From: an uncultured Acidimicrobiales bacterium
Lineage (GTDB): Bacteria; Actinomycetota; Acidimicrobiia; Acidimicrobiales; SHLQ01
DNA: 64,000 nt
Assembly (NCBI GenBank): GCA_938038815.1
Contig: CALHTF010000011.1
Coordinates: 33,063 to 97,062, forward strand
Direction of reading: 5' to 3'
Positions 36,887 to 55,505 of the stretch are shown here, one piece after another (position 1 is the first letter of the stretch; each line of letters begins with the position of its first letter). A program made the position numbers and the translations under genes. The notes below the pieces were generated by a model, which saw only the letters and a program-made list of their open reading frames with translations, did not search any database and had not been told where the DNA came from.

Positions 36887-37073
36887 ACGAACTGCGGGCT
36901 GTGAAACGCTCGCTTTTTGCGAACGACGTTCTCAGTTGGACCGATTCGCTAGTCGTAAACCAAAACAGCTGCGAGGGTAAACGTTGTCAGCCGGGTGCCT
37001 TCGGATACGTCCCATCCGATGGCACTCGGCGACATCACGTTGGTTGGATGGCTCACCCTTTTCAAACGGGTGT

Positions 37074-37587: not shown

Positions 37588-37615
37588 TGGTGCCCCAGCA
37601 ACATTGCTGGGGCAC
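37588..37615 (-). terminator. Intrinsic terminator candidate downstream of the ammonium transporter gene
   Basis: Perfect 12-bp stem GGTGCCCCAGCA / TGCTGGGGCACC with a 4-nt loop. On the minus strand it is followed by AGTGGTTTTAG. Confidence 0.6.
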
Positions 37616-37671
37616 CGTTGTCGTTTGCCGACCGGGTGGATAGAAACCGGCAAGCGCTACATCGGCGTTCG

Positions 37672-44366: not shown

Positions 44367-45482
44367 GTGAACGTTCTGGTTATGGGTGGGTCGGCGTTTA
44401 ATGGCCGGGCACTCGTCAAGGTGCTGCTCGAAGAAGGCCACGAGGTGACGGTGTGCAACCGGGGACGCACGGTGGTTGAACACCCGGGTCCGGTCGCGCT
44501 GCTGGCCGCCGACCGCACCGACCACGATGCGCTGCGGGGTGTACTCGCCGGAACCGAGTGGGACGCCGTGATCGATATGACGGCGTATCACCCCGAAGAT
44601 GTCGAGCTGATGATCGAACTCTTCGAAGGCCGGGTGGGCCACTACATCTACGTCAGCTCGACGGTTACCTACGCCGAGGTGACACCCGATCGGCCCGGGC
44701 CGATCGACGAGTCCTACCCCGACGATCGAGGCCCGAACCAGTACGAATATGGCCTGCACAAACTGCTGGCGGAAGATGCTCTGGTAGCCGCCCATCGAGA
44801 CCGAGGCTTTCCGGGAACCACCGTGTCGCTGTCGATGGTGTTTGGTCCGCACAATGCTTTGCCCGGGCGCGAGCAACGCATGTTCAGCCGGCTGCTGCTG
44901 GGCCGGCCGGTCTTGGTGCCGGGCGACGGCTCGACCCTAGGCATCGTCGGCCATGTCGAAGATCAAGGCCGAGCCTTCGCCGCCCTGTTGGGGGTCGAGG
45001 CATCGTTCGGCAAGCGCTTTAACCTCACCGGCGACGATCCGCACACCGACAACCGGTATGTAGAGGTCTTGGCCGGCGTGGTTGGGGTCAGCCCAGAGGT
45101 AGTGCACATTCCGGCACCGCTCATGGACGACCTGTGGGACAACAAGATCTCACTGACGCGCGACGGCGGTGCCAGGGCGTCGATGGATATCCGCCCGACC
45201 GACGCGGCCATCGACCGCGTGCTGCCGCACCTCCACAAAGGGCCACTCGCCAACCTGATTCAGCGGATCCAACCATCGATTCATCGGTGGAGCAGCGATG
45301 TGGTGTTCGAGGTCGCCGCGCTTAAGGAGGTGACCGGCTGGTCGCCCTCGTTCAACTTTGAGCAAGCGGCCGAACACACCTTCGCCTGGTGGACCGAAGC
45401 CGGCCTGCACCACACCGTCGAGCAAGACTTCACCTACGAAGACGAAATCCTCGCCCTCGTAGCCAACCACGAAAAGATCTGA
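44367..45482 (+). CDS. NAD-dependent epimerase/dehydratase family protein
   Basis: 371 aa. Rossmann motif VLVMGGSAFNGRAL and an extended-SDR YxxxK-type region (YEYGLHK). Confidence 0.85.
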   Translation: MNVLVMGGSAFNGRALVKVLLEEGHEVTVCNRGRTVVEHPGPVALLAADRTDHDALRGVLAGTEWDAVIDMTAYHPEDVELMIELFEGRVGHYIYVSSTVTYAEVTPDRPGPIDESYPDDRGPNQYEYGLHKLLAEDALVAAHRDRGFPGTTVSLSMVFGPHNALPGREQRMFSRLLLGRPVLVPGDGSTLGIVGHVEDQGRAFAALLGVEASFGKRFNLTGDDPHTDNRYVEVLAGVVGVSPEVVHIPAPLMDDLWDNKISLTRDGGARASMDIRPTDAAIDRVLPHLHKGPLANLIQRIQPSIHRWSSDVVFEVAALKEVTGWSPSFNFEQAAEHTFAWWTEAGLHHTVEQDFTYEDEILALVANHEKI

Positions 45483-45491
45483 TCGCCTTTG

Positions 45492-45554
45492 ACGTTCTGA
45501 TTGCAGTTGAACCGCGCTTCGCGGCTCAACTGCAAAAATTTCGGGGCTCGGGGG
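45492..45554 (+). repeat. Intergenic hairpin repeat, copy 1
   Basis: GACGTTCTGATTGCAGTTGAACCGCGCTTCGCGGCTCAACTGCAAAAATTTCGGGGCTCGGGGG. Arms TTGCAGTTGAACCGCG / CGCGGCTCAACTGCAA pair at 15 of 16 positions. It lies between the convergent epimerase and RTX genes. Confidence 0.85.
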
Positions 45555-47123
45555 TTAGCAGTTGATGAGAGTATCGGTGCCGGCACCGCCTCGGCAGGTG
45601 TCGTTTCCGATTCCGCCGTTGAGTAGGTCGGGGCCTTTGCTGCCGCGGAGGATGTCTTTGCCTTGGTCTCCGAAGAGTTTGTCGGTTCCGACATTGCCGT
45701 TGAGGATGTCGTTTCCGGGTCCGCCCCAGAGTTTGTCTTTGCCGGCTTTGCCGTTGAGGATATCGTGACCTGACCCGCCGTGTAGTTGGTCGTTGCCGGC
45801 GTAGCCGCAGATGATGTCGTTGCCGCCGCCGGCGTCGATGATGTCGTCGCCATCGGTGCCCGCGATTCGGTCATCACCATTCGTTGCCAGCGGCAGGTCG
45901 GTTCGACGGGGAAGCACAAGGTCGTGGGTTGCGTATCGGCCCATGCACCTGGGTCGCTGGTACACGGTTACCGAGTTGTGCGACTGCATCACCACGGTTC
46001 GACCGTTCTTCGAGACCACCGCATCGACAAATGAGCGCCAACGATCGTCCTCGCCCAGGTAGTACGACAGGTTGATCTCTTCGCCGGTCTTACGATCGAT
46101 GATGTTCAGACCCGTGGTGGGATCGTTCACGTTTCCGGAGCTGACGATCGGCAGCCAGCGCCCGGTTGCCGATGGTCGGAACACCGCCCCACCGAGGTCG
46201 GAGTTATAGGTGATGCGGGTCGTTTCGCCCGTGGGGATGTCGTAGGTGTACTGGTCGCCGTATTGTCCGGCAGGTTCGACCCGGGGGTCGAGTGTTTTGT
46301 CGTCGGAGGAGAACACGAGCTCGTCGCCCTTCGGGGAGAGGAAGGCTCGATTGACTTCTCCGGTTGTCTCCGGGGTAACGCTTCGGTACGTGTCGGTGGC
46401 CGGGAAGTACAGGAAGGGTTGCTCGCCGAACTCGAAGTTGACCTTGGGTTCGGGGGTGAGATCCGACGACGAACTCACGAACGAGACGACCGACCCGTCG
46501 TCGCTGATCTCCGGACTTCGAGAAATGCCGTCGGATTGCCGAGTGATGTTGTCGGCCTCGCCAGAGACGGCGTCGAACAACAAGATGTCGTAGTACCAAC
46601 GGGGCGCACCGGGAATCACGAAGATGATCTCGGCAACCACGGTCCGATTGTCGGCCGCAACCCGGGCGCTGATGATCCTGACTTGGGCCCACCACGGCGA
46701 AGTGTCAAAGAGTTCGGTGAGGTCGGTGGTTATACCGGTGGCGATCTCATAGGAGTAGACCCGTGACTGGTTTGCCAGCAGGCTCAGATCGAGCAGCAGG
46801 TCGCTAAAGATCAGTCGCGAGGAATCTGGGCTGAAAGAGATCGATCCGGTGTTGAGCAGGATGTTTCGACTTACGTGGGTCGTTTCGCCGGTCTCGATGT
46901 CGTACAGGTACACCTCGGCCAAACCTTGGGCCGTGCCGTAGGCGACGTATCGGCCGTCGCGTGAAACGGCGACCTCGCGGATTCGGTGGGGGAGGATTGG
47001 GGTGACTTCGATAATCCGATCGTCCGAAGCGATCGGGGCTGCTTCGGCCACCGTTTGGCCGGCAGGTAGGCCGGTAGCAGCGACGGCGGCCGCCAGCAGG
47101 GCGACGAGGAATCGGAACAACAT
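45555..47123 (-). CDS. Secreted beta-propeller-like protein with C-terminal RTX (hemolysin-type Ca-binding) repeats
   Basis: Start set at ATG 47123 (MLFRFLVALLAAAVAATGLPAG... signal peptide). The middle region has repetitive blades resembling TolB/WD40-like propellers. The C-terminus carries at least 9 tandem nonapeptides of GGxGxD type (GTDGDDIID AGGGNDIIC GYAGNDQLH GGSGHDILN GKAGKDKLW GGPGNDILN ...). Confidence 0.8.
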   Translation of the reverse strand: MLFRFLVALLAAAVAATGLPAGQTVAEAAPIASDDRIIEVTPILPHRIREVAVSRDGRYVAYGTAQGLAEVYLYDIETGETTHVSRNILLNTGSISFSPDSSRLIFSDLLLDLSLLANQSRVYSYEIATGITTDLTELFDTSPWWAQVRIISARVAADNRTVVAEIIFVIPGAPRWYYDILLFDAVSGEADNITRQSDGISRSPEISDDGSVVSFVSSSSDLTPEPKVNFEFGEQPFLYFPATDTYRSVTPETTGEVNRAFLSPKGDELVFSSDDKTLDPRVEPAGQYGDQYTYDIPTGETTRITYNSDLGGAVFRPSATGRWLPIVSSGNVNDPTTGLNIIDRKTGEEINLSYYLGEDDRWRSFVDAVVSKNGRTVVMQSHNSVTVYQRPRCMGRYATHDLVLPRRTDLPLATNGDDRIAGTDGDDIIDAGGGNDIICGYAGNDQLHGGSGHDILNGKAGKDKLWGGPGNDILNGNVGTDKLFGDQGKDILRGSKGPDLLNGGIGNDTCRGGAGTDTLINC

Positions 47124-47165
47124 GGGGTTCCCGTCGGCTAATCGACCAAAACTTCCACCCAACCC

Positions 47166-47236
47166 ACGTTCTGATTGCCGTTGAACCGCGCCTGGCGGCT
47201 GAACTGCAAAAATTTCGGGGGTCGGGGGTCGGGGGT
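47166..47236 (+). repeat. Intergenic hairpin repeat, copy 2 (with extended G-run tail)
   Basis: ACGTTCTGATTGCCGTTGAACCGCGCCTGGCGGCTGAACTGCAAAAATTTCGGGGGTCGGGGGTCGGGGGT. It is about 90 percent identical to copy 1 over the core, in the same orientation, and lies immediately upstream of the RTX gene start. Confidence 0.85.
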
Positions 47237-47248
47237 AGGGAGTGGGGG

Positions 47249-47527
47249 TTAGAGACCGGCTTGGTTTCTTAGCCAGCGCCACTGGAGGAAGCGGCGGCCT
47301 ACCAACAAGATGTAGATCACCCCGGCGGCAATGATCAACCAACCCAACCAGCCCACCCAGAGCGAGATTGCGTAACCGATGGCGGCGATAAGGACGCCTA
47401 CGAAGGCGTCGGCGGCGAGCACCGACTTCCAGTTGACGGCGAAGGTCGCCTTGCGAGCATGACGGCCCATCGCCCCAAGGTCGAGGGCCTCGATGTCTAC
47501 ATCGGGAAGGTCGGCTGGGTCGGTCAT
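47249..47527 (-). CDS. Small two-TM membrane protein, unknown function
   Basis: 92 aa. Acidic N-terminus, then two hydrophobic helices (VLAADAFVGVLIAAIGYAISLWV, LGWLIIAAGVIYILLV). It starts 12 nt after the stop of the FAD-oxidase gene. Confidence 0.6.
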   Translation of the reverse strand: MTDPADLPDVDIEALDLGAMGRHARKATFAVNWKSVLAADAFVGVLIAAIGYAISLWVGWLGWLIIAAGVIYILLVGRRFLQWRWLRNQAGL

Positions 47528-47539
47528 GCGGTGGGGGTC

Positions 47540-48982
47540 CTAGTTCGGGATGATGGTTCCCATGTTCATGACCCCGTTCGGGTCATAGACCGCCTTGAGC
47601 TTTTCGAGCATCGGGTACGACGTGCCGTACTCGTCCTTCACCCACGGGGCCCGAGCCTTGCCCATGCCATGGTGGTGCACGATCGAGCCGCCATAACGCA
47701 GCGTCTCCTCGACGATGATCGAGATGATTGGCATATAGAGCTCTTCGGTCTCGTTCTCGGGAGCGGTGTCGCCAAGATCGAAGAAGTAGTTGAAGTACAG
47801 GTTCGTGCCGTTGATATAGCTATGGCTCGAATGGCCACCCAACAAGGTGATGCCATCGATCTCGGCCCGAATACGGGGGATCACGGCGTCGTAGATCTTC
47901 TGGATGCTGGTCCAGTCGGCCGAGACTTCGGTGGTCCGGTTGACGTTGCGTTCGTCGCGGATCCGGTTGGCCTCGCGCACGACCTTGGTTTCGTCCCACA
48001 CGAGGTCGTTAAACCACTCGTCGACCAGCCGTGGTTCGATTGGTTTGCAGCCCGGGTGCTTGGCCACGATCTCGCGGATTCCCTCGGCGGTCGCCTCGGC
48101 GATTCGGGCGTTGCCTTCGGTGGTGAAGATGATGGTCACCTCGTCGGGGTCGGCCATGTGCGAGAACTGGAGCTGGCCGTCCTCGTAGTCGTACAGCCGG
48201 GCGACGGCGGGTTTGAATCCAGCCACCATTACCTCGCGCAGCACCTCGAAGCCTTCGGACATTTCCTTGGTGGTCCAGCCGAGGTACTGGTTGTTCTCCG
48301 GCATAAACGGGAACAATTTCACCGTGACTTCGGTGATGTAACACAGCGCGCCTTCGTTGCCGATCACGATGTGGCGAATGTCGGGCCCGGCGGCGCGGCG
48401 GGGGATGCTCTTGATGCGCGACACCTCGCCACCGGCAAACACCACTTCGCAACCGACCACCATGTCTTCGATGCCGCCGTACAGGGTGGAGAGCTGACCT
48501 CGGCTGCGGGTGGCGACCAATCCACCCATGCTGGCGATTGGCTTGGATTGCGGCGAGTGGCCGGTGGTGAGGCCCACCTCGCGGCACGCGTCCTCAAGGG
48601 TTTGGAGCGGCACACCACAGCCGACGGTGGCTTGCATGTTGTAGGGGTCGATGTTGATGATCTCGTCAATCAGCGACCCGTCGACCACGATCGAGCGGTC
48701 GGTTCCGCTTTCGAGGCCGCCTTCGGTCGCGGTACCGCCGGTGCGGGCAACCACGTTGACATCATTGGCATCGGCGAAGGCCAAAATCTTCGACACTTCG
48801 TCGGTCGAGTTCGCCATAACCACGGCCACCGGAAGTTGGCGGGTGTGGGTGTCGAAGATGGTCTGGAGCTTGCGGAAGTGGTCGACACTGGCGAGCTTGA
48901 GCGTGGGTTCGTCGGTGATCACCCGGTCGGTGTCGACGATCTGGCCCAACTGTTCGATGACGGCTTCAGAGGTAAGAGACAT
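47540..48982 (-). CDS. FAD-linked oxidase (GlcD / D-lactate dehydrogenase / alkyl-DHAP synthase-like)
   Basis: 480 aa. FAD_binding_4-type N-terminal half (VVARTGGTATEGG...). The C-terminal HHHGMGKARAPW motif is typical of the vanillyl-alcohol-oxidase-fold FAD-oxidase C domain. Confidence 0.85.
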   Translation of the reverse strand: MSLTSEAVIEQLGQIVDTDRVITDEPTLKLASVDHFRKLQTIFDTHTRQLPVAVVMANSTDEVSKILAFADANDVNVVARTGGTATEGGLESGTDRSIVVDGSLIDEIINIDPYNMQATVGCGVPLQTLEDACREVGLTTGHSPQSKPIASMGGLVATRSRGQLSTLYGGIEDMVVGCEVVFAGGEVSRIKSIPRRAAGPDIRHIVIGNEGALCYITEVTVKLFPFMPENNQYLGWTTKEMSEGFEVLREVMVAGFKPAVARLYDYEDGQLQFSHMADPDEVTIIFTTEGNARIAEATAEGIREIVAKHPGCKPIEPRLVDEWFNDLVWDETKVVREANRIRDERNVNRTTEVSADWTSIQKIYDAVIPRIRAEIDGITLLGGHSSHSYINGTNLYFNYFFDLGDTAPENETEELYMPIISIIVEETLRYGGSIVHHHGMGKARAPWVKDEYGTSYPMLEKLKAVYDPNGVMNMGTIIPN

Positions 48983-48998
48983 GGGTCAACTTTCGGTC

Positions 48999-49035
48999 CA
49001 AACTGAATCAGGTGTCTGACACCTGATTCAGTTTG
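48999..49035. other. Perfect 17-bp inverted repeat with 3-nt loop (terminator/attenuator or operator)
   Basis: CAAACTGAATCAGGTGT ctg ACACCTGATTCAGTTTG. It overlaps the stop codon of the FGGY kinase gene and ends 17 nt upstream of the FAD-oxidase start codon. Confidence 0.7.
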
Positions 49036-50446
49036 CTCGTTGGTAGAACGGGTCGGTGTAGTCGCGGATACCGGGCAAGACCGTAGTGAGGATCTGCCGG
49101 TAGGTCGCGACATTGGTCGGATTCGGGGTGAAGGTTTCGCGGTCGCTGCCCATGGCGGCCGAGGCAGCTTCGATCGATGGGTGGATGCCAACCGCGCTGG
49201 CGGCACACATCGCGGCGCCCAGGCTCGCACCCGACGCGCCGGTGGCTCGAGAGGTCGGTAGGTCGAAAACGTCGGCGAAGATAGTCATGAAGAGGTCGCT
49301 GTTGCTGCCTCCACCCGACAAGACGATGTTGTCGATCGAGGCGCCGACGTCGTCGACCATGGCATCGACATGGGTCTTCATCGTGAGGGCGATCGCCTCA
49401 AGCACCGCCCGGTACAGGTGGCCGCGGGTGTGGCGGGCGTCGAAGCCCAATATGGTGGCCTTGCGGAATGGTTTGTCGGTTGGCGCCAAAAAGTCGAGCA
49501 CCATGACCAAGCCATCGCTGCCGGCCGGAAGGTCGACGGCCTCTTGTTCGAGGTAACGCTCGCGCCCTAGTCCGGAGGCTTCGGCCGCGGCGGCGAACTC
49601 GGGGCCCAACAGGTCGAGCAGCCACGTGAGGGTCCACATGCCGCGCCGGATGCCATTGCTCTCGTAGAGATACACGCCGGGCATGCTGGCGAAGTTGGTC
49701 CAGAAGCTTTTGGTGGCTGGCCGGTTTTCGGCGCCGTGCATCATGGCGGCGATGTAGGTGCCGAGCGAGATCAACACCGTGGAGTGGGCCAACGAACCGG
49801 CCCCCAACATCTCGACCGCTTTGTCGTTGGCGGTCGACACGACCGGGGTTCCTGCAGCGATGCCGGTGGCTGCCGCAGCCGCAGCGGTGATGGTGCCGAT
49901 GATCTCGCCCGGTTGTTGTAGCTCGAAGAGCTTTTCTTGCTTCGTGCCGTGATGGTGGTGGTGCTTGGGGTTGTCGCTCCACCGCCACGTATCGGTGTCG
50001 ATCGGCCACTGCAGTGCAATGTTGTTGGCGGCGGTGTCGATGAACGCCCCGGTCAGGCGGTGGCCGAGGTATCCCGACAGCGTGGTGGCCCAGACAACGT
50101 TGGGATTGTCGGGCGTGTAGGCGGTGTACGCGCGGTCGTCCATCCAGTTGATAACCGGTTCGGTGAGTTGGCCGTCGGTATCGAGGAACGCCTTGCAGCA
50201 CCGGATCGGGCACAGTCCAACGGCGGCGATCTCGACGTCGGGCGCCAGGCTCGACAACGCCTGCTTCGTTGCGGCACAGGTGGCGTCCCACAGGTCGTCG
50301 TCGGGGTGCACGACCACGCCGGGCGTGGGCCGCAGCGTGGGCCGCAGGGTTTGTTGGCCGCGGGCCACTTCGGTGCCGTGTTGATCGAACACCACGACCT
50401 TGGCGCTTTGGGTGCCGCAGTCGATGCCGAGCAGGTACTGGGTCAC
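49028..50446 (-). CDS. FGGY-family carbohydrate kinase (xylulokinase-like)
   Basis: LLGIDCGTQSAKVVVFD N-terminal motif and GGGSNSDLFMTIFADVFDLP C-terminal motif. I set the start at GTG 50446, overlapping the SDR stop (GTGA). The longer track ORF to 50689 overlaps the SDR gene. Confidence 0.88.
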   Translation of the reverse strand: MTQYLLGIDCGTQSAKVVVFDQHGTEVARGQQTLRPTLRPTPGVVVHPDDDLWDATCAATKQALSSLAPDVEIAAVGLCPIRCCKAFLDTDGQLTEPVINWMDDRAYTAYTPDNPNVVWATTLSGYLGHRLTGAFIDTAANNIALQWPIDTDTWRWSDNPKHHHHHGTKQEKLFELQQPGEIIGTITAAAAAATGIAAGTPVVSTANDKAVEMLGAGSLAHSTVLISLGTYIAAMMHGAENRPATKSFWTNFASMPGVYLYESNGIRRGMWTLTWLLDLLGPEFAAAAEASGLGRERYLEQEAVDLPAGSDGLVMVLDFLAPTDKPFRKATILGFDARHTRGHLYRAVLEAIALTMKTHVDAMVDDVGASIDNIVLSGGGSNSDLFMTIFADVFDLPTSRATGASGASLGAAMCAASAVGIHPSIEAASAAMGSDRETFTPNPTNVATYRQILTTVLPGIRDYTDPFYQRAN

Positions 50447-51219
50447 CGGACGAGGTAGCCGCCGTCGACGGCGAGGATGTGGCCGTTGACGTAATCCGAC
50501 GCTTGGCTGGCCAAAAACACCGCGGTACCCATGAGGTCGACTCGTTCGCCCCAGCGTTCGGCTGGGATGTGGTCGAGCACCCGTTGATTGGTTTCGGGGT
50601 TGCCGCGGGTGTTTTCGGTGATCGCCGTGGCGAAGTAGCCCGGGGCGATGCCGTTGACCTGAATGTTGTGCATCGCCAGTTCGTCGCAATACGCCTTGGT
50701 GAGCCCGGCGATGCCGTGCTTTGTGGCGGCGTAGGCGGGGGAGAGGCGTCCGCCAAGAAAGCTGAACATCGAGCAGATGTTGATGATCTTGCCCGAGCGT
50801 TGCGGGATCATCACCTTGGCGGCTTCATGGCTCATCTCGAACGCCGCGGTGAGGTTGACCGCCACGGTGGCATCCCACTTGTCGCGGCCGAAGTCGAGCA
50901 CGTCGTCGAGCGGGCACACGCCGGCGCTGTTGATCAGGATGTCGACCGACCCAAAGGCATCGATACACGAGGCGATGACCTTGGCGGGTTCGCCGTCTTG
51001 GGTGATGTCGGACTCGAGAAAGGCGTACTGCTGCCCGGTCGCCTCGATGAGTTCGGCGGTGGTTCCGTCGTCGTCGGCCAGGCTTGGCACGAACACGTTG
51101 GCGCCGGCGGTGGCGAGTGCGGTGGCAAACCCTTGGCCGAGCCCGGAGTTGCCTCCGGTGACAATCGCCGTCTTGCCGGCGAGGTCGAACCAGTTCATCG
51201 AAAAGTCGGTCAGCGACAT
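50443..51219 (-). CDS. Short-chain dehydrogenase/reductase, KduD (2-deoxy-D-gluconate 3-dehydrogenase)-like
   Basis: 258 aa with TGGNSGLGQG cofactor motif, the catalytic YAATKHG (YxxxK) and the PGYFAT region. Confidence 0.88.
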   Translation of the reverse strand: MSLTDFSMNWFDLAGKTAIVTGGNSGLGQGFATALATAGANVFVPSLADDDGTTAELIEATGQQYAFLESDITQDGEPAKVIASCIDAFGSVDILINSAGVCPLDDVLDFGRDKWDATVAVNLTAAFEMSHEAAKVMIPQRSGKIINICSMFSFLGGRLSPAYAATKHGIAGLTKAYCDELAMHNIQVNGIAPGYFATAITENTRGNPETNQRVLDHIPAERWGERVDLMGTAVFLASQASDYVNGHILAVDGGYLVR

Positions 51220-51293
51220 GGGGCCTCAGGTTAGACGCCGGTTGCCCCAGCGGGGTCGGTGGAGCTTTTTCGACGCCGTTACTTTACATACCT

Positions 51294-51303
51294 GTTAATT
51301 AAC
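51294..51303. promoter_or_regulatory. AT-rich palindrome GTTAATTAAC in the divergent promoter region upstream of the ArsR-family gene
   Basis: A perfect 10-bp palindrome inside ACATACCTGTTAATTAACTAGTAGGTTAACTG, about 20 nt upstream of the ArsR-family ATG. The AT-rich patch is unusual for this high-GC window. Confidence 0.4.
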
Positions 51304-51322
51304 TAGTAGGTTAACTGCCGAG

Positions 51323-51709
51323 ATGACAACCCTTACGCCCGTCGGGCGTGCCGACCGAGAAGACCGACTCGACGAAACCTTTGCTGCGCTGGCCAACTCG
51401 ACCCGCCGCGCCATCTTGGCCCGGCTCGCCAACGGCGAAGCGAACGTCACCGAACTGGCCGAACCGTTCGACATGACCCTGCCGGCGATCTCGCGTCACC
51501 TAAAGGTGCTCGAAGATGCGGGGCTCATCGTCCGAGGGCAACGAGCCCAGTATCGCCCGTGTGCGATCAACGCTGAACCCCTCGAAGAGGTAGCGAACTG
51601 GACCGAGGCGTACCGCCCGGTGTGGGAAGACCGGTTCGACCGGATGGACGCCTACCTCGAAAAAGTCGCCAAACAATCCAACGAAAAAACAGAGAGAGAA
51701 CAACCGTGA
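51323..51709 (+). CDS. ArsR/SmtB-family transcriptional regulator
   Basis: 128 aa. Winged HTH: FAALANSTRRAILARLANGEANVTELAEPFDMTLPAISRHLKVLEDAGLI. Confidence 0.9.
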   Translation: MTTLTPVGRADREDRLDETFAALANSTRRAILARLANGEANVTELAEPFDMTLPAISRHLKVLEDAGLIVRGQRAQYRPCAINAEPLEEVANWTEAYRPVWEDRFDRMDAYLEKVAKQSNEKTEREQP

Positions 51710-51711
51710 GT

Positions 51712-52194
51712 ATGTCCGCAGAAGAATCCATGCGCATCGAGCGCACCGTCGCCGCGCCGATCGACTTGGTGTGGCAAATGTGGACCAAGTCCGAGCACTT
51801 TGCTGCTTGGTACGGGCCGATGGGTGCCGAGATTCCGGTGGCCAACATGGACGTGCAGGTTGGCGGCAAGCGCCACATCTGTATGGCGATGCAAACCCCC
51901 AACGGCCCGATGAAGATGTGGTTTGTGGGCGAGTACCTCGAGATCGAGGAGCCCACTCGTCTCGTCTACACCGAATCGATGTCCGACGAGGACGGCAATG
52001 TCATGTCACCCGCCGATATGGGGATGCCTGAAGGATCGCCCGACACCACCCAGATCGTGGTCGAGCTGACCGCCGCCGGCGATCAGACCAACATGGTGCT
52101 GAGCCACGTGGGTGTGGCTCCCGATTCGCCTGGCGCAGGCGGTTGGGGCATGGCGATCGACAAGCTCGATGCGCTAGCGGTGTCACTCGCGTAA
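51712..52194 (+). CDS. SRPBCC-superfamily (Aha1/START-like) protein
   Basis: 161 aa with RTVAAPIDLVWQMWTKSEHFAAWYGP, typical of Aha1_N/SRPBCC proteins that are commonly paired with ArsR regulators. ATG sits 2 nt after the ArsR stop. Confidence 0.8.
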   Translation: MSAEESMRIERTVAAPIDLVWQMWTKSEHFAAWYGPMGAEIPVANMDVQVGGKRHICMAMQTPNGPMKMWFVGEYLEIEEPTRLVYTESMSDEDGNVMSPADMGMPEGSPDTTQIVVELTAAGDQTNMVLSHVGVAPDSPGAGGWGMAIDKLDALAVSLA

Positions 52195-52216
52195 CACCCG
52201 CCTGAGTGTCCGGCGA

Positions 52217-52528
52217 TTACATCTCCAAGCATTCCGAGATCTGCACACTGGATCCGGCCGCGAGAACTGGACAGCCCTTGGCGATCTCTTTGGCGTCGTC
52301 GAGCGAGTCGGCCTTCACCACCGTGTAGCCGGCCAGCGACGACGGCAGATCGATGTCGCCGTCGGGTCCGATTGCGGTGTGGGCACCGAACGGGTTACCG
52401 CCGTCAACCAGATTCTCGCCGATCGTTCCGTACCAGGATCCCCAGGCATCCATGATCGCTTGGACAGCAGTGGGGTCCTCTGGGAAGTCAGCTGGTTGTC
52501 CGTGGTAGGTGAGTACGTAAGTCGTCAT
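52217..52528 (-). CDS. YCII-related domain protein
   Basis: 103 aa, small alpha/beta protein with the pattern YVLTYHG...W..W.......GGNPF...........GYTVVKADSLDDAKEIAKGCP. Confidence 0.65.
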   Translation of the reverse strand: MTTYVLTYHGQPADFPEDPTAVQAIMDAWGSWYGTIGENLVDGGNPFGAHTAIGPDGDIDLPSSLAGYTVVKADSLDDAKEIAKGCPVLAAGSSVQISECLEM

Positions 52529-52647
52529 TGTCTTGGTTCCTTCTGTGTGTTTTGAGGGCGTGTCCCCCGGTTACCAAGACGTCGAACGACGGTGCCGAAA
52601 ATCGACACCGTCGTCCAAATTTCTTTCTGGTCATGGGTTTGGTGGAC

Positions 52648-53052
52648 CTAGACCGGCCCCATGGCGTGGTTTGAATGAATGCTGAGTTGGTTGCCGTCGG
52701 GATCGATGGCGCCAAACGAGTCGTGGGGGTGACCCCGCTTGATCTCGGTGACGGTTGCTCCGGCTTGACCAACGATCTCCCACGTTTCGTCGATGTCGTC
52801 GACGATGAAGTCGAGTGACGATGTTCCACTCTGCCCGGGGTGCACCACGATATGGGTGCCCCCGCGCAGTTCGAGGATCACGGTCTGTCCCATATCGACG
52901 ACAAGGCGCAGGCCGACTTCGGTATAGAAGTCGCGCAGCGCAGCGACGTTGGAGGATGGAACGGTTACGTGGCCGATCCCAAAGCGGGGTCGAGGGTCGG
53001 TTTCGCCTGGGGCGGATTGCAGTGCGGTGGTTTGAACTACTGGTAGTGACAA
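52648..53052 (-). CDS. VOC-family (glyoxalase/bleomycin-resistance/dioxygenase) protein
   Basis: 134 aa with GIGHVTVPSSNVAALRDFYTEVGL...ELRGGTHIVVH...GAIDPDGNQLSI. Confidence 0.8.
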   Translation of the reverse strand: MSLPVVQTTALQSAPGETDPRPRFGIGHVTVPSSNVAALRDFYTEVGLRLVVDMGQTVILELRGGTHIVVHPGQSGTSSLDFIVDDIDETWEIVGQAGATVTEIKRGHPHDSFGAIDPDGNQLSIHSNHAMGPV

Positions 53053-53161
53053 AAGTATTCCTTCTGGTTGTTGTTAGGTATGCTTAACAACCCTGCCGCC
53101 CCGGTTCCTATTCCGCCGCCGGGCGAAAACTGTAGTCCTGCGACATCCCGTGCCCGTCGAG

Positions 53162-53215
53162 CGTTCTGATTGCAGTTGGTCGGCCCAGAGCCGTTCAACT
53201 GCAAAAGTTTCACGG
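53162..53215 (+). repeat. Intergenic hairpin repeat, copy 3 (divergent apical stem)
   Basis: CGTTCTGATTGCAGTTGGTCGGCCCAGAGCCGTTCAACTGCAAAAGTTTCACGG. It shares the 5' flank, the basal stem TTGCAGTTG/CAACTGCAA and the 3' AAAGTTTC with copies 1 and 2. The apical stem is CGGC/GCCG instead. Confidence 0.8.
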
Positions 53216-53235
53216 TTTGCGCGGTCGGTGGCTGG

Positions 53236-53715
53236 TTAGCTTGCCGACGCCGTTGCCCGGTTGAGCCGCTCGGTGATGTCGTTGCAGTCTTCACAGCCCC
53301 AGAGGCGGTTGTAGATGATGCAGCCGAGGCAGATTGCGGCGGTGGCTTCGAGGGTTGCCGCGCCGACGAGTGCCAGGGCAACCAGCTTTGCTGCGCCGGT
53401 GAAACCAGCGAGGAACAATGCGGCGGTCGTGGTCGAGAACGCGAGGCCAATCGATTGGGCGAAGCGCTTGGGTGCGCCAGGGACGATGCGGTGTTCGCCC
53501 GGAAGGCGGGGGGTGATGACTCGGGTGACCAGTTGGCCAAGCGGGCTCAGCGTCGGGCCAGTAAGCACTCGGGCGGCAAAGCCGTACACCAGCGGGATGA
53601 GTACCCAGCCGCTGCCGGTGATCACAAAGGTCAGGCCCATGAGTACGACGCCGGTCGCTACCAAGCGGGCAGAGGTTTCGTTTACTTGGTCTGGGAAGGA
53701 GAACACGTTCGACAC
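53236..53715 (-). CDS. DUF4395-family membrane protein
   Basis: 159 aa. FPDQVNETSARLVATGVV start, four TM helices and a C-terminal Cys cluster (AAICLGCIIYNRLWGCEDC). Confidence 0.7.
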   Translation of the reverse strand: MSNVFSFPDQVNETSARLVATGVVLMGLTFVITGSGWVLIPLVYGFAARVLTGPTLSPLGQLVTRVITPRLPGEHRIVPGAPKRFAQSIGLAFSTTTAALFLAGFTGAAKLVALALVGAATLEATAAICLGCIIYNRLWGCEDCNDITERLNRATASAS

Positions 53716-55449: not shown

Positions 55450-55505
55450 CCCGAACTCGGATGCAAAAGTGCTGCCAGAACGACAGGTCTGCATCCGAGT
55501 TCGGG
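55450..55505. other. 16-bp perfect inverted repeat with 24-nt spacer in a divergent promoter region
   Basis: CCCGAACTCGGATGCA (55450-55465) ... TGCATCCGAGTTCGGG (55490-55505). It lies between the divergently transcribed PaaI thioesterase and DJ-1/PfpI genes. Confidence 0.7.

What the first reader, a model, noticed from the sequence alone, without database searches (positions are those of the whole stretch)
45492..53215. Hairpin-forming intergenic repeat family (three clear copies, one possible remnant)
Three intergenic sites carry the same element in the same orientation: 45492-45554, 47166-47236 and 53162-53215. The shared core is CGTTCTGATTGC(A/C)GTTG ... (C/G)AACTGCAAAA(A/G)TTTC.

In copy 1 the arms TTGCAGTTGAACCGCG and CGCGGCTCAACTGCAA pair at 15 of 16 positions. 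Copy 3 keeps the 5' flank, the basal 9-bp stem (TTGCAGTTG/CAACTGCAA) and the 3' flank, but replaces the apical stem with a different self-complementary pair (CGGC/GCCG). The structure is therefore conserved while the sequence differs. Copy 2 has two non-compensated arm changes.

A possible degenerate 5' half lies at 36925-36943 (GACGTTCT-CAGTTGGACCG, which is copy 1 with a 5-nt deletion), also between convergent genes. The right arm of the 48999-49035 palindrome (CCTGATTCAGTTTG) also resembles the CTGATTGCAGTTG core.

This looks like a REP/MITE-like or terminator/sRNA module. I do not recognise it as any named element.
Basis: seen in the sequence. Interest (0 to 1): 0.6.

Follow-up and report, generated by a model that had tools for sequence, protein, structure and literature searches.

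The report
Repeated hairpin after three gene ends
Three nearly identical ~50-70-base hairpin modules sit just after the stop codons of three same-strand genes in an uncultured Acidimicrobiia bacterium; they are most likely a small, lineage-specific family of transcript-end stem-loops of the U-tract-less type already described in Actinobacteria, so they are real but fairly ordinary.

Summary
The core observation is real. Three same-orientation copies (45492-45554, 47166-47248, 53161-53235) share invariant flanks and a 15-16 bp hairpin. Profile and covariance-model scans find no fourth copy in the 64 kb window.

The proposed remnant (36925-36943) and the resemblance to the 48999-49035 palindrome are not above chance.

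The window is ordinary chromosome of an Ilumatobacteraceae-like Acidimicrobiia MAG, with no transposase or integrase. Every neighbouring gene is on the minus strand, and each copy starts 13-33 nt after a minus-strand TAA stop (RTX protein, 92-aa membrane protein, DUF4395). The gene-sense strand is therefore the minus strand: C-rich tract, GAAAYUUU, hairpin, AUCAGAAC. G.U wobbles occur on that strand.

A congeneric relative (L017; epimerase 92% aa identity) has, at the orthologous RTX/epimerase junction, the same flanks around a hairpin of different sequence. The structure is conserved there through compensatory changes.

Pattern scans of 185,579 species genomes and of JGI metagenomes gave only chance matches; viral contigs, plasmids and phages gave nothing. 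Rfam has no match.

Best reading: 3'-end or intercistronic RNA stem-loops (terminator or 3'-end protector, no U-tract) that were copied or homogenised within this genome, in a REP-like way. They lack the REP tags, inverted doublets and any nearby RAYT. This is a new member of a known kind, of low to moderate interest.

The parts
45492..45554 (-). Copy 1, complete unit, read on the minus (gene-sense) strand: C-rich tract 45554-45545; 5' flank CGAAATTTT 45544-45536; hairpin 45535-45501 (16 bp including one G.U, loop AAG); 3' flank TCAGAACGT 45500-45492. It lies between the RTX-protein stop (45555-45557) and the convergent epimerase stop (45480-45482).
   Evidence: hairpin -27.0 kcal/mol on the minus strand against -22.7 on the plus strand; 83.2 bits.
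47166..47248 (-). Copy 2, read on the minus strand: (CCCCCGA)n C-rich tract 47248-47219; 5' flank 47218-47210; weakened hairpin 47209-47175 (two internal mismatches); 3' flank 47174-47166. It starts right after the stop of the 92-aa membrane-protein gene (47249-47251) and ends 43 nt before the RTX gene start (47123).
   Evidence: -14.3 kcal/mol; 75.7 bits; gene calls.
53161..53235 (-). Copy 3, read on the minus strand: C-rich tract 53235-53214; 5' flank GTGAAACTT 53213-53205; hairpin 53204-53170 (9-bp basal stem identical to copy 1, a different apical CGGCU/GGCCG stem); 3' flank 53169-53161. It lies between the DUF4395 stop (53236-53238) and the glyoxalase-family gene start (53052).
   Evidence: 78 bits; Pfam results.
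45555..47123 (-). Gene for a secreted beta-propeller/RTX-repeat protein (522 aa), flanked by copy 2 upstream and copy 1 downstream.
47249..47527 (-). 92-aa predicted membrane-protein gene whose TAA stop immediately precedes copy 2. It is 83% identical to its ortholog in L017.
53236..53640 (-). DUF4395 gene whose TAA stop immediately precedes copy 3.

Best explanation
The three sites are paralogous copies of a ~60-85 nt module that acts as RNA on the minus (gene-sense) strand. In the transcript of the upstream gene it reads: stop codon (TAA), a C-rich G-poor tract, GAAAYUUU, a stable 15-16 bp stem-loop, then AUCAGAAC.

Proposed function: it defines or protects the 3' end of the upstream message. 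It would be an actinobacterial-type 3'-end stem-loop with a long stem and no U-tract. It either pauses or terminates RNA polymerase (alone or with Rho loading on the C-rich tract), or it blocks 3'->5' exonucleases after termination further downstream. At copies 2 and 3, which sit between co-directional genes, it would work as an intercistronic attenuator or stabiliser.

Proposed history: the copy at the RTX/epimerase junction is old, because it is present in a congeneric species. The near-identity of the three copies within this genome, against a strongly diverged ortholog, implies recent copying or gene conversion within the genome, as seen in REP-like families.

Shown: the repeat, the fold, the position after stop codons, the ortholog with covariation, and the restricted distribution.
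Inferred: the RNA-level function, termination or stabilisation, and the mode of spread.
For: 1. Position. All four known instances (three in the window plus L017:3533-3578) begin 7-33 nt after the stop codon of a gene on the same strand: two at convergent junctions and two between co-directional genes.
2. Structure. The folds have z-scores of -4.6, -2.5 and -3.6 on the minus strand.
3. Covariation. On alignment A4, 85.7% of cells pair, against 20-48% when the partner is slid. Four pairs change on both sides. Copy 3 and L017 replace stem sequence while keeping the pairing.
4. Strand. G.U wobbles lie on the minus strand (they would be C.A mismatches on the plus strand), and the hairpin-only energy favours the minus strand in 3 of 4 instances.
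5. Orthology. L017 is congeneric (epimerase 92%, 92-aa ORF 83% identity). At the same junction it keeps GAAACTTT and ATCAGA around a different hairpin; the covariance model scores it 58.7 bits.
6. Other genes in this genome are followed by unrelated long hairpins without a proper U-tract: Amt 37589-37616, DUF456 36984-37033 (conserved in L017 with a compensatory change) and FGGY 48999-49035. C-rich, G-poor sequence after stop codons is general here.
7. Published analysis reports that actinobacterial 3'-end stem-loops have long stems and often lack U-rich tails, that Actinobacteria have the highest Rho-dependency scores, and that hairpins may protect ends after Rho termination (PMC13613805, read).
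8. The paralogs are far more alike (copy 1 against copy 2: 92% over 63 nt) than copy 1 is to its own ortholog (about half of the stem positions differ).
Against: - No transcript data exist, so no 3' end has been observed.
- There is no U-tract on either strand, and mycobacterial RNA polymerase is reported (my own knowledge of the literature) to need one for intrinsic termination.
- Copy 2 has two stem mismatches and folds no better than shuffles on the plus strand, and only modestly better on the minus strand.
- Copy 2 ends only 43 nt before the RTX start codon. Full termination there would leave the RTX gene without an obvious promoter.
- A simple hairpin terminator does not explain the strong conservation of the unpaired flanks.
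- Only four sequences (three nearly identical) support the covariation, and about 5% of shuffles (24/500) reach the observed pairing.
- The mechanism of copying is unknown.
Confidence: 0.55

Rival explanations
1. A genuine mobile REP/MITE-like DNA element. The hairpin plus its conserved single-stranded flanks would be recognised as single-stranded DNA by a transposase encoded elsewhere in the genome (RAYT or IS200/IS605-like Y1, or another type). The family would then be abundant genome-wide, and any RNA effect would be secondary.
For: - The unpaired flanks are invariant among the copies, and the apical stem varies freely provided it still pairs. This pattern fits protein recognition of a hairpin foot plus flank.
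- The paralogs are much more similar to each other than to the ortholog, which implies intragenomic copying.
- The location, downstream of ORFs between unidirectional or convergent genes, matches what is described for REPs (PMC3733652).
- Copy 2 sits exactly where relative L017 has a 1.25 kb glyoxalase-WYL insertion or deletion.
Against: - There is no GTAG or CGTC tag. There are no inverted doublets, and all three copies have the same orientation.
- No target-site duplication is visible.
- No transposase or integrase was found in 64 kb (gene tables).
- There are only 3 copies in 64 kb, all within 8 kb, and 1 in 13.5 kb of the congener.
- Scans of 185,579 species genomes and of JGI metagenomes returned only chance matches with no hairpin; viral contigs, plasmids and phages returned no match at all.
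- One copy is vertically inherited at an orthologous site.
Confidence: 0.2
2. Neutral leftovers of a small local duplication or gene conversion among nearby terminator hairpins. The three-fold similarity would carry no family-specific function, and each hairpin would be just one of this genome's ordinary gene-end hairpins.
For: - All three copies lie within 7.7 kb, with none in the other 56 kb.
- Copy 2 is decaying, with uncompensated mismatches.
- No copies were found outside this genus.
Against: - The flanks are retained at the orthologous site in a different species while the stem diverged.
- Copy 3 keeps perfect flanks and basal stem despite a rebuilt, still-pairing apical stem, which argues for selection on the structure.
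- The repeat boundaries coincide with the stop codon, with no duplicated coding sequence.
Confidence: 0.12
3. A double-stranded DNA operator: a palindromic binding site for a dimeric transcription factor that regulates the neighbouring genes.
For: - The basal arms TTGCAGTTGA / TCAACTGCAA are perfect inverted repeats in copies 1 and 3.
- Copies 2 and 3 lie upstream of co-directional genes.
Against: - The ortholog in L017 has entirely different arms (TCGCGATGG...), yet it keeps the pairing and the flanks.
- A variable centre would not need to stay self-complementary for a protein operator, but it does in copy 3.
- Copy 1 and the L017 copy have no downstream gene on either strand (convergent junction).
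- The conserved flanks are asymmetric.
Confidence: 0.04
4. Recombination sites that delimit gene cassettes (attC-like, or the ends of a single-strand transposon). The RTX gene, bounded by direct copies 2 and 1, would be a cassette.
For: - Direct-orientation hairpins flank a single gene, the RTX gene.
- The genes next to the copies are small accessory-type genes (glyoxalase, DUF4395).
- Synteny with relatives breaks around these sites.
Against: - The attC R''/R' order (RYYYAAC ... GTTRRRY) is inverted here: GTTGA...TCAAC lies inside the stem (read directly from the sequence).
- At 35 nt the stem-loop is shorter than the 57-141 nt typical of attC sites (from my own knowledge).
- No integrase or Y1 transposase is present in 64 kb.
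- In L017 the RTX gene is at the same locus with only the downstream hairpin, so the gene is vertically inherited and not a mobile cassette.
Confidence: 0.04
5. A small RNA or antisense element expressed from the plus strand, the orientation in which the first reader described it.
For: - The hairpin also folds on the plus strand.
- Copy 1 also lies 10 nt after the plus-strand epimerase stop codon.
Against: - There is no promoter-like site on the plus strand near any copy.
- Copies 2 and 3 have no plus-strand gene context.
- The wobble positions become C.A mismatches on the plus strand, and the hairpin energy is weaker there in 3 of 4 instances.
- There is no terminator-like tail on the plus strand.
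Confidence: 0.05

Closest known systems
Actinobacterial 3'-end stem-loops without a U-tract ('I-shaped' terminators, or hairpins associated with Rho-dependent termination), as surveyed with BATTER (PMC13613805)
   Same: Both have a long GC-rich stem (15-16 bp), no U-rich tail, a position a few to a few tens of nucleotides after a sense-strand stop codon, and a C-rich G-poor upstream tract. The same genome has several unrelated hairpins of this type.
   Different: Those hairpins are individually unrelated in sequence. Here three sites share invariant unpaired flanks and a basal stem, so they form a sequence family. No 3'-end mapping exists for this organism.
REP / BIME / REPIN elements (GTAG- or CGTC-tagged palindromic repeats mobilised by RAYTs; PMC3733652, PMC3116915)
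   Same: Both are 20-40 bp imperfect palindromes with conserved unpaired nucleotides at the foot. Both are extragenic, downstream of ORFs between unidirectional or convergent genes, species-specific in sequence, more similar within a genome than between genomes, and proposed to act as RNA stabilisers or terminators.
   Different: This element has no GTAG or CGTC tag, no inverted doublets and no RAYT in 64 kb. Copy number is unknown (3 in 64 kb). The host is Actinomycetota, a phylum that does not appear in the main text of the tagged-REP survey read here.
Stem-loop-containing sequence (SLS) families of bacterial genomes (Cozzuto et al. 2008, PMC2267715)
   Same: It fits the generic class: short intergenic repeats that share a predicted hairpin and possibly function as RNA.
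   Different: That survey covered 40 genomes and defined its families by HMM. This family is not among any searchable collection used here, and it is tiny as far as can be seen.
Integron attC sites
   Same: Both are hairpin-forming imperfect palindromes placed after each of a series of same-strand genes, conserved in structure more than in sequence.
   Different: The order of the core sites is inverted, the hairpin is shorter, there are no recognisable extrahelical bases and no integrase, and the flanked RTX gene is vertically inherited.

Membership tests
REP / REPIN (RAYT-associated) | Imperfect palindrome of 20-40 bp, extragenic, downstream of ORFs | tested here: met
   The stem-loops are 35 nt, and all copies are intergenic and lie after stop codons.
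REP / REPIN (RAYT-associated) | Conserved unpaired GTAG or CGTC tetranucleotide at one end of the palindrome (PMC3733652) | tested here: not met
   The flanks are GAAAYTTT and ATCAGAAC(G) on the minus strand, i.e. (C)GTTCTGAT and AAARTTTC on the plus strand. No GTAG or CGTC is conserved in all copies.
REP / REPIN (RAYT-associated) | Frequent inverted doublets (REPINs/BIMEs) | tested here: not met
   All three copies are single and in the same orientation, 1.6 and 6 kb apart.
REP / REPIN (RAYT-associated) | High copy number across the genome | not testable with these tools
   The source genome is not in the searchable collections. There are 3 copies in 64 kb and 1 in 13.5 kb of the congener.
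REP / REPIN (RAYT-associated) | A RAYT (Y1 transposase) gene in the genome, flanked by REPs | tested here: inconclusive
   No Y1_Tnp or other transposase was found among the window's predicted proteins (gene tables). The rest of the genome was not seen.
Canonical intrinsic (Rho-independent) terminator | GC-rich hairpin immediately followed by a run of U | tested here: not met
   The consensus scan does not report the sites. The 3' flank is AAUCAGAACG on the minus strand and AAAAAUUUCG on the plus strand.
Actinobacterial U-tract-less 3'-end stem-loop | Long stable stem, no U-rich tail, just downstream of a sense-strand CDS | tested here: met
   The stems are 15-16 bp with energies of -14 to -27 kcal/mol, and lie 7-33 nt after TAA stops in 4 of 4 instances. 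The class description comes from PMC13613805.
Actinobacterial U-tract-less 3'-end stem-loop | Mapped transcript 3' end at the hairpin | not testable with these tools
   No transcriptome data are available here.
Integron attC | R'' (RYYYAAC) at the 5' end and R' (GTTRRRY) at the 3' end; extrahelical bases; an integrase or cassette array | tested here: not met
   The motif order is GTTGA...TCAAC, the inverse of attC, and lies inside the stem (sequence). No integrase is present in the window.
MITE | Terminal inverted repeats with flanking target-site duplication, and an empty site in relatives | tested here: inconclusive
   No direct repeat flanks any copy. The only comparable site for copy 2 in L017 carries 1.25 kb of other genes rather than an empty site. 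The copy 1 site is occupied in both species.
Any Rfam 15 family | Covariance-model match at the gathering score | tested here: not met
   There were 0 hits at gathering score in the whole window. Local E-value scans gave only chance miRNA or snoRNA hits.

The most novel reading that the evidence does not exclude
The element is a previously undescribed REP-like family in Actinomycetota (Acidimicrobiia). The hairpin is free to covary, while two asymmetric single-stranded tags (GAAAYUUU 5' and AUCAGAAC 3') are held constant because a dedicated, still unidentified factor reads them. That factor could be a nuclease, an RNA-binding protein, or a non-RAYT transposase. It would copy the module to the 3' ends of genes, or process transcripts there, so that the module works as a portable transcript-end cassette.
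Probability: 0.15. Interest if true: 0.5.

Novelty: new member of a known kind. Interest (0 to 1): 0.25.

Why it matters
If the reading is right, it gives a concrete, sequence-defined example of the U-tract-less transcript-end hairpins that dominate high-GC Actinobacteria and whose mechanism is still debated (intrinsic termination, Rho-assisted termination, or exonuclease block).

The family supplies natural variants for testing: an intact copy, a copy with a rebuilt apical stem, a decaying copy, and a diverged ortholog with the same flanks. These could show which parts matter, the stem or the flanks.

It would also extend REP-like intragenomic repeat dynamics to Acidimicrobiia. Beyond that it is a local annotation detail in an uncultured lineage.

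Tried and rejected
1. Wider distribution. A two-part exact pattern was scanned against one genome for each of 185,579 species, JGI metagenomes and IMG/VR. It gave 6, 6 and 0 hits. All the metagenome hits, and apparently the genome hits, are chance matches: one per contig in unrelated taxa, with weak profile scores, and low GC with no hairpin in the metagenome hits whose sequences were read. blastn against plasmids and phages found nothing. The genome and metagenome scans are single-use, so looser patterns could not be tried.
2. Fetching the rest of the source contig. Exact-protein look-ups from the window mostly failed or returned only short contigs. The 94.6 kb ENA contig is a 99.94%-identical strain, not the source itself.
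3. Orthologous loci of more distant relatives (L008, L009, L010, L021-L024; FAD oxidase or epimerase at 71-87% aa identity). They show no synteny at the relevant junctions, and nhmmer, regex and covariance-model scans find no copy.
4. A looser flank-plus-hairpin scan (GAAAYTT N18-55 ATCAGA, or either flank with 1 mismatch plus a fold) found no additional members.
5. The idea that the TAA stop codon is part of the element. All four instances have CTAACC, but TAA is 12 of 51 stops in this window and is often followed by C-rich sequence. This is suggestive only.
6. The idea that the glyoxalase gene beside copy 3 is the relocated L017 glyoxalase. The two proteins are unrelated.
7. Promoter within the element: no sigma-70-like match.
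8. A -1 frameshift signal (AAATTTT plus hairpin): rejected, because it lies after the stop codon and copy 3 has AAACTTT.
9. The remnant at 36925-36943 and the 48999-49035 similarity: rejected as chance.

Full report
**1. What is in the sequence**

The three sites exist as described.
- CGTTCTGATTGC[A/C]GTTG occurs exactly three times, at 45493, 47167 and 53162, all on the + strand. At up to 3 mismatches, 0.4 matches are expected by chance.
- Its partner [C/G]AACTGCAAAA[A/G]TTTC occurs at 45527, 47201 and 53196.
- The copy 1 arms are 16 nt and 94% complementary. Copy 3 keeps the flanks and the 9-bp basal stem and has a different, still self-complementary apical stem. Copy 2 carries uncompensated changes.
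- An nhmmer profile and a covariance model run with filters off find only these three copies in the 64 kb window. The model scores them 83, 78 and 76 bits, and the next hit scores 12.5 bits at E of about 1.

The two tentative extras are not supported. The 36925-36943 'remnant' and the resemblance to the 48999-49035 palindrome appear neither in nhmmer at E<=100 nor among the top 200 blastn-short hits of copy 1. The orthologous stretch of a relative looks less like the element, not more.

**2. Source and gene context**

FAD-oxidase homologues place the window in an Ilumatobacteraceae-like Acidimicrobiia MAG. Two strain-level contigs exist, of 94.6 kb and 102.7 kb. The fetched one is 99.94% identical to the window, and the profile scores of its three elements are identical to those in the window. 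Two Logan assemblies also carry copies 1 and 2 unchanged.

The window is ordinary chromosome: dnaK-grpE-dnaJ-hspR-clpB, purA/D/B/C, pheA, a beta-galactosidase, an ammonium transporter and so on. It contains no transposase, integrase or Y1 transposase (gene tables).

Around the elements every gene is on the minus strand:
- DUF4395 (53640..53236), then copy 3, then a glyoxalase-family gene (53052..52648).
- FAD oxidase, then a 92-aa membrane protein (47527..47249), then copy 2, then the beta-propeller/RTX protein (47123..45555), then copy 1, then the convergent epimerase, which ends at 45482.

Each copy therefore begins 13-33 nt after a minus-strand stop codon. Read on that strand the unit is: TAA, a C-rich G-poor tract ((CCCCCGA)n), GAAAYTTT, the hairpin, then ATCAGAACG.

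**3. Which strand, and is the structure selected?**

- On the minus strand the single 'mismatch' of copy 1 is a G.U wobble. Copy 3 gains a U.G closing pair.
- Hairpin-only energies favour the minus strand in three of four instances: -27.0 against -22.7, -14.3 against -13.9, -19.5 against -19.8, and -17.9 against -15.2 kcal/mol.
- The key comparative result comes from L017, a contig of a congeneric species (epimerase 92%, 92-aa ORF 83%, RTX protein 57% aa identity).
  - At the orthologous RTX/epimerase junction it reads GAAACTTT-CGCGATGGGCGGGC-GGAGA-GCCCTTCAGCGCG-ATCAGACCC.
  - The flanks are the same and the hairpin has a different sequence. The basal UGCA/UGCA becomes CGCG/CGCG, for example.
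- On the four-sequence alignment A4, 85.7% of cells pair, against 20-48% when the partner is slid. Four pairs change on both sides. With only four sequences this is supportive, not conclusive: about 5% of shuffles (24/500) reach the observed pairing.
- A loose flank pattern finds this L017 site and the three window copies and nothing else. The covariance model scores the L017 site 58.7 bits.

**4. Distribution**

- A two-part exact pattern scanned against one genome for each of 185,579 species, against JGI metagenomes and against IMG/VR gave 6, 6 and 0 hits. The metagenome hits are low-GC contigs with no hairpin. The genome hits are single sites in unrelated taxa with weak profile scores. All look like chance matches.
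- blastn against plasmids and phages found nothing.
- Rfam has no match.
- More distant relatives (71-87% aa identity for neighbouring enzymes) have neither the synteny nor the element.
- As far as these data reach, the family is confined to one sparsely sampled genus.

**5. How it most likely works**

This genome places long hairpins without a proper U-tract after other genes too:
- A 13-bp stem after the ammonium transporter gene (37589-37616).
- A 20-bp stem after the DUF456 gene (36984-37033), conserved in L017 with a compensatory change.
- A perfect 18-bp palindrome over the FGGY kinase stop codon (48999-49035).

C-rich, G-poor sequence right after stop codons is also general here. This matches a published description: actinobacterial 3'-end stem-loops have long stems and often lack U-rich tails, Actinobacteria have the highest Rho-dependency scores, and such hairpins may protect ends after Rho-dependent termination (PMC13613805).

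I therefore read the module as a transcript-end or intercistronic RNA stem-loop acting on the minus-strand mRNAs. It would cause termination or pausing, possibly Rho-assisted through the C-rich tract, and/or block 3' exonucleases. That step is inference, because no 3' ends have been mapped.

Three sites share the same sequence, and paralogs are 92% identical (copy 1 against copy 2) while copy 1's own ortholog differs at about half of the stem positions. This shows copying or homogenisation within the genome after the two species split, the dynamics known from REP-like families. The mechanism of that copying is unknown. All three copies lie within 7.7 kb, which fits local gene conversion or duplication at least as well as transposition.

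**6. Rivals**

- A true mobile REP/MITE (confidence 0.2). It would explain the invariant unpaired flanks. However, the GTAG/CGTC tag that defines the tagged REP superfamilies (PMC3733652) is absent. There are no inverted doublets, no target-site duplication and no transposase in 64 kb, and one copy is vertically inherited.
- A double-stranded DNA operator. Excluded, because the L017 arms differ completely while the pairing is kept.
- attC-like cassette sites. The core motif order is inverted, there is no integrase, and the RTX 'cassette' is at the same locus in L017.
- A plus-strand sRNA. It has no promoter, no gene context for copies 2 and 3, and weaker pairing.
- A neutral local duplication remains possible (0.12). 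The retained flanks in L017 and the rebuilt but still pairing apical stem of copy 3 count against it.

**7. Unexplained**

- Why the single-stranded flanks (GAAAYUUU and AUCAGAAC, AU-rich in a 62% GC genome) are conserved.
- Why all four upstream genes end in CTAACC. TAA is only 12 of 51 stops in the window.
- Whether it is meaningful that copy 2 occupies the position where L017 carries a 1.25 kb glyoxalase-WYL segment.

**8. Verdict**

The finding is real and is more than chance. It is conserved at one orthologous site with compensatory change. It is best filed as a small lineage-specific family of 3'-end stem-loop repeats: REP-like in behaviour, not a tagged REP by membership, and not in Rfam. 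This is a new member of a known kind. Interest is 0.25.

Noticed in passing
window 36984-37033 (minus strand), within the conserved block ~36955-37045: A ~20-bp long hairpin lies 40 nt downstream of the DUF456 gene stop. It is far better conserved against the congener (L017:12150-12250) than the surrounding intergenic DNA. It has one compensatory pair (C-G to U-A) and one G-U to A-U change. There is no Rfam match. It is probably another gene-end stem-loop or a small structured RNA.
   Followed up: partly
window 48999-49035: A perfect 18-bp palindrome with a 1-nt centre (CAAACTGAATCAGGTGTC/GACACCTGATTCAGTTTG) overlaps the FGGY kinase stop codon, in the 45-nt gap before the FAD oxidase start. 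It is unrelated to the repeat family by alignment. It may be an intercistronic hairpin or an operator.
   Followed up: partly
window 55450-55465 / 55490-55505: A 16-nt perfect inverted repeat with a 24-nt spacer sits in the divergent intergenic region between the DJ-1/PfpI gene and the 4HBT thioesterase gene. It could be an operator or a structured leader.
   Followed up: no
window 37589-37616 (minus strand): A 13-bp perfect hairpin (GGTGCCCCAGCAA..TTGCTGGGGCACC) lies 56 nt after the ammonium transporter stop codon and is followed by AGUGGUUUUAG. It is the nearest thing to a canonical terminator seen in this region.
   Followed up: no
window 47124-47248 compared with L017:689-1956: Between the 92-aa ORF and the RTX gene, the congener carries a 1.25 kb segment (a glyoxalase on the opposite strand plus an HTH-WYL regulator). 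The window has only copy 2 at that position. The last ~30-45 nt of the RTX 5' UTR are homologous in both. The direction of the insertion or deletion is unknown.
   Followed up: partly
window 47217-47248 (+ strand): On the plus strand the C-rich tract of copy 2 reads GGGGGTCGGGGGTCGGGGGTAGGGAGTGGGGG. That is five G-runs, a canonical G-quadruplex motif. Copies 1 and 3 do not have it.
   Followed up: no
whole window (53 predicted gene ends): The 25 nt after stop codons are on average C-rich and G-poor on the sense strand (mean C minus G of +2.3, with several sites at +10 or more). Stop-codon usage is TAG 25, TGA 14, TAA 12. All four element-bearing genes end in CTAACC.
   Followed up: partly
window 45558-47123 (minus strand): The beta-propeller/RTX protein is only 57% identical to its syntenic ortholog in L017, while the neighbouring genes are 83-92% identical. 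It is a fast-evolving secreted protein.
   Followed up: no
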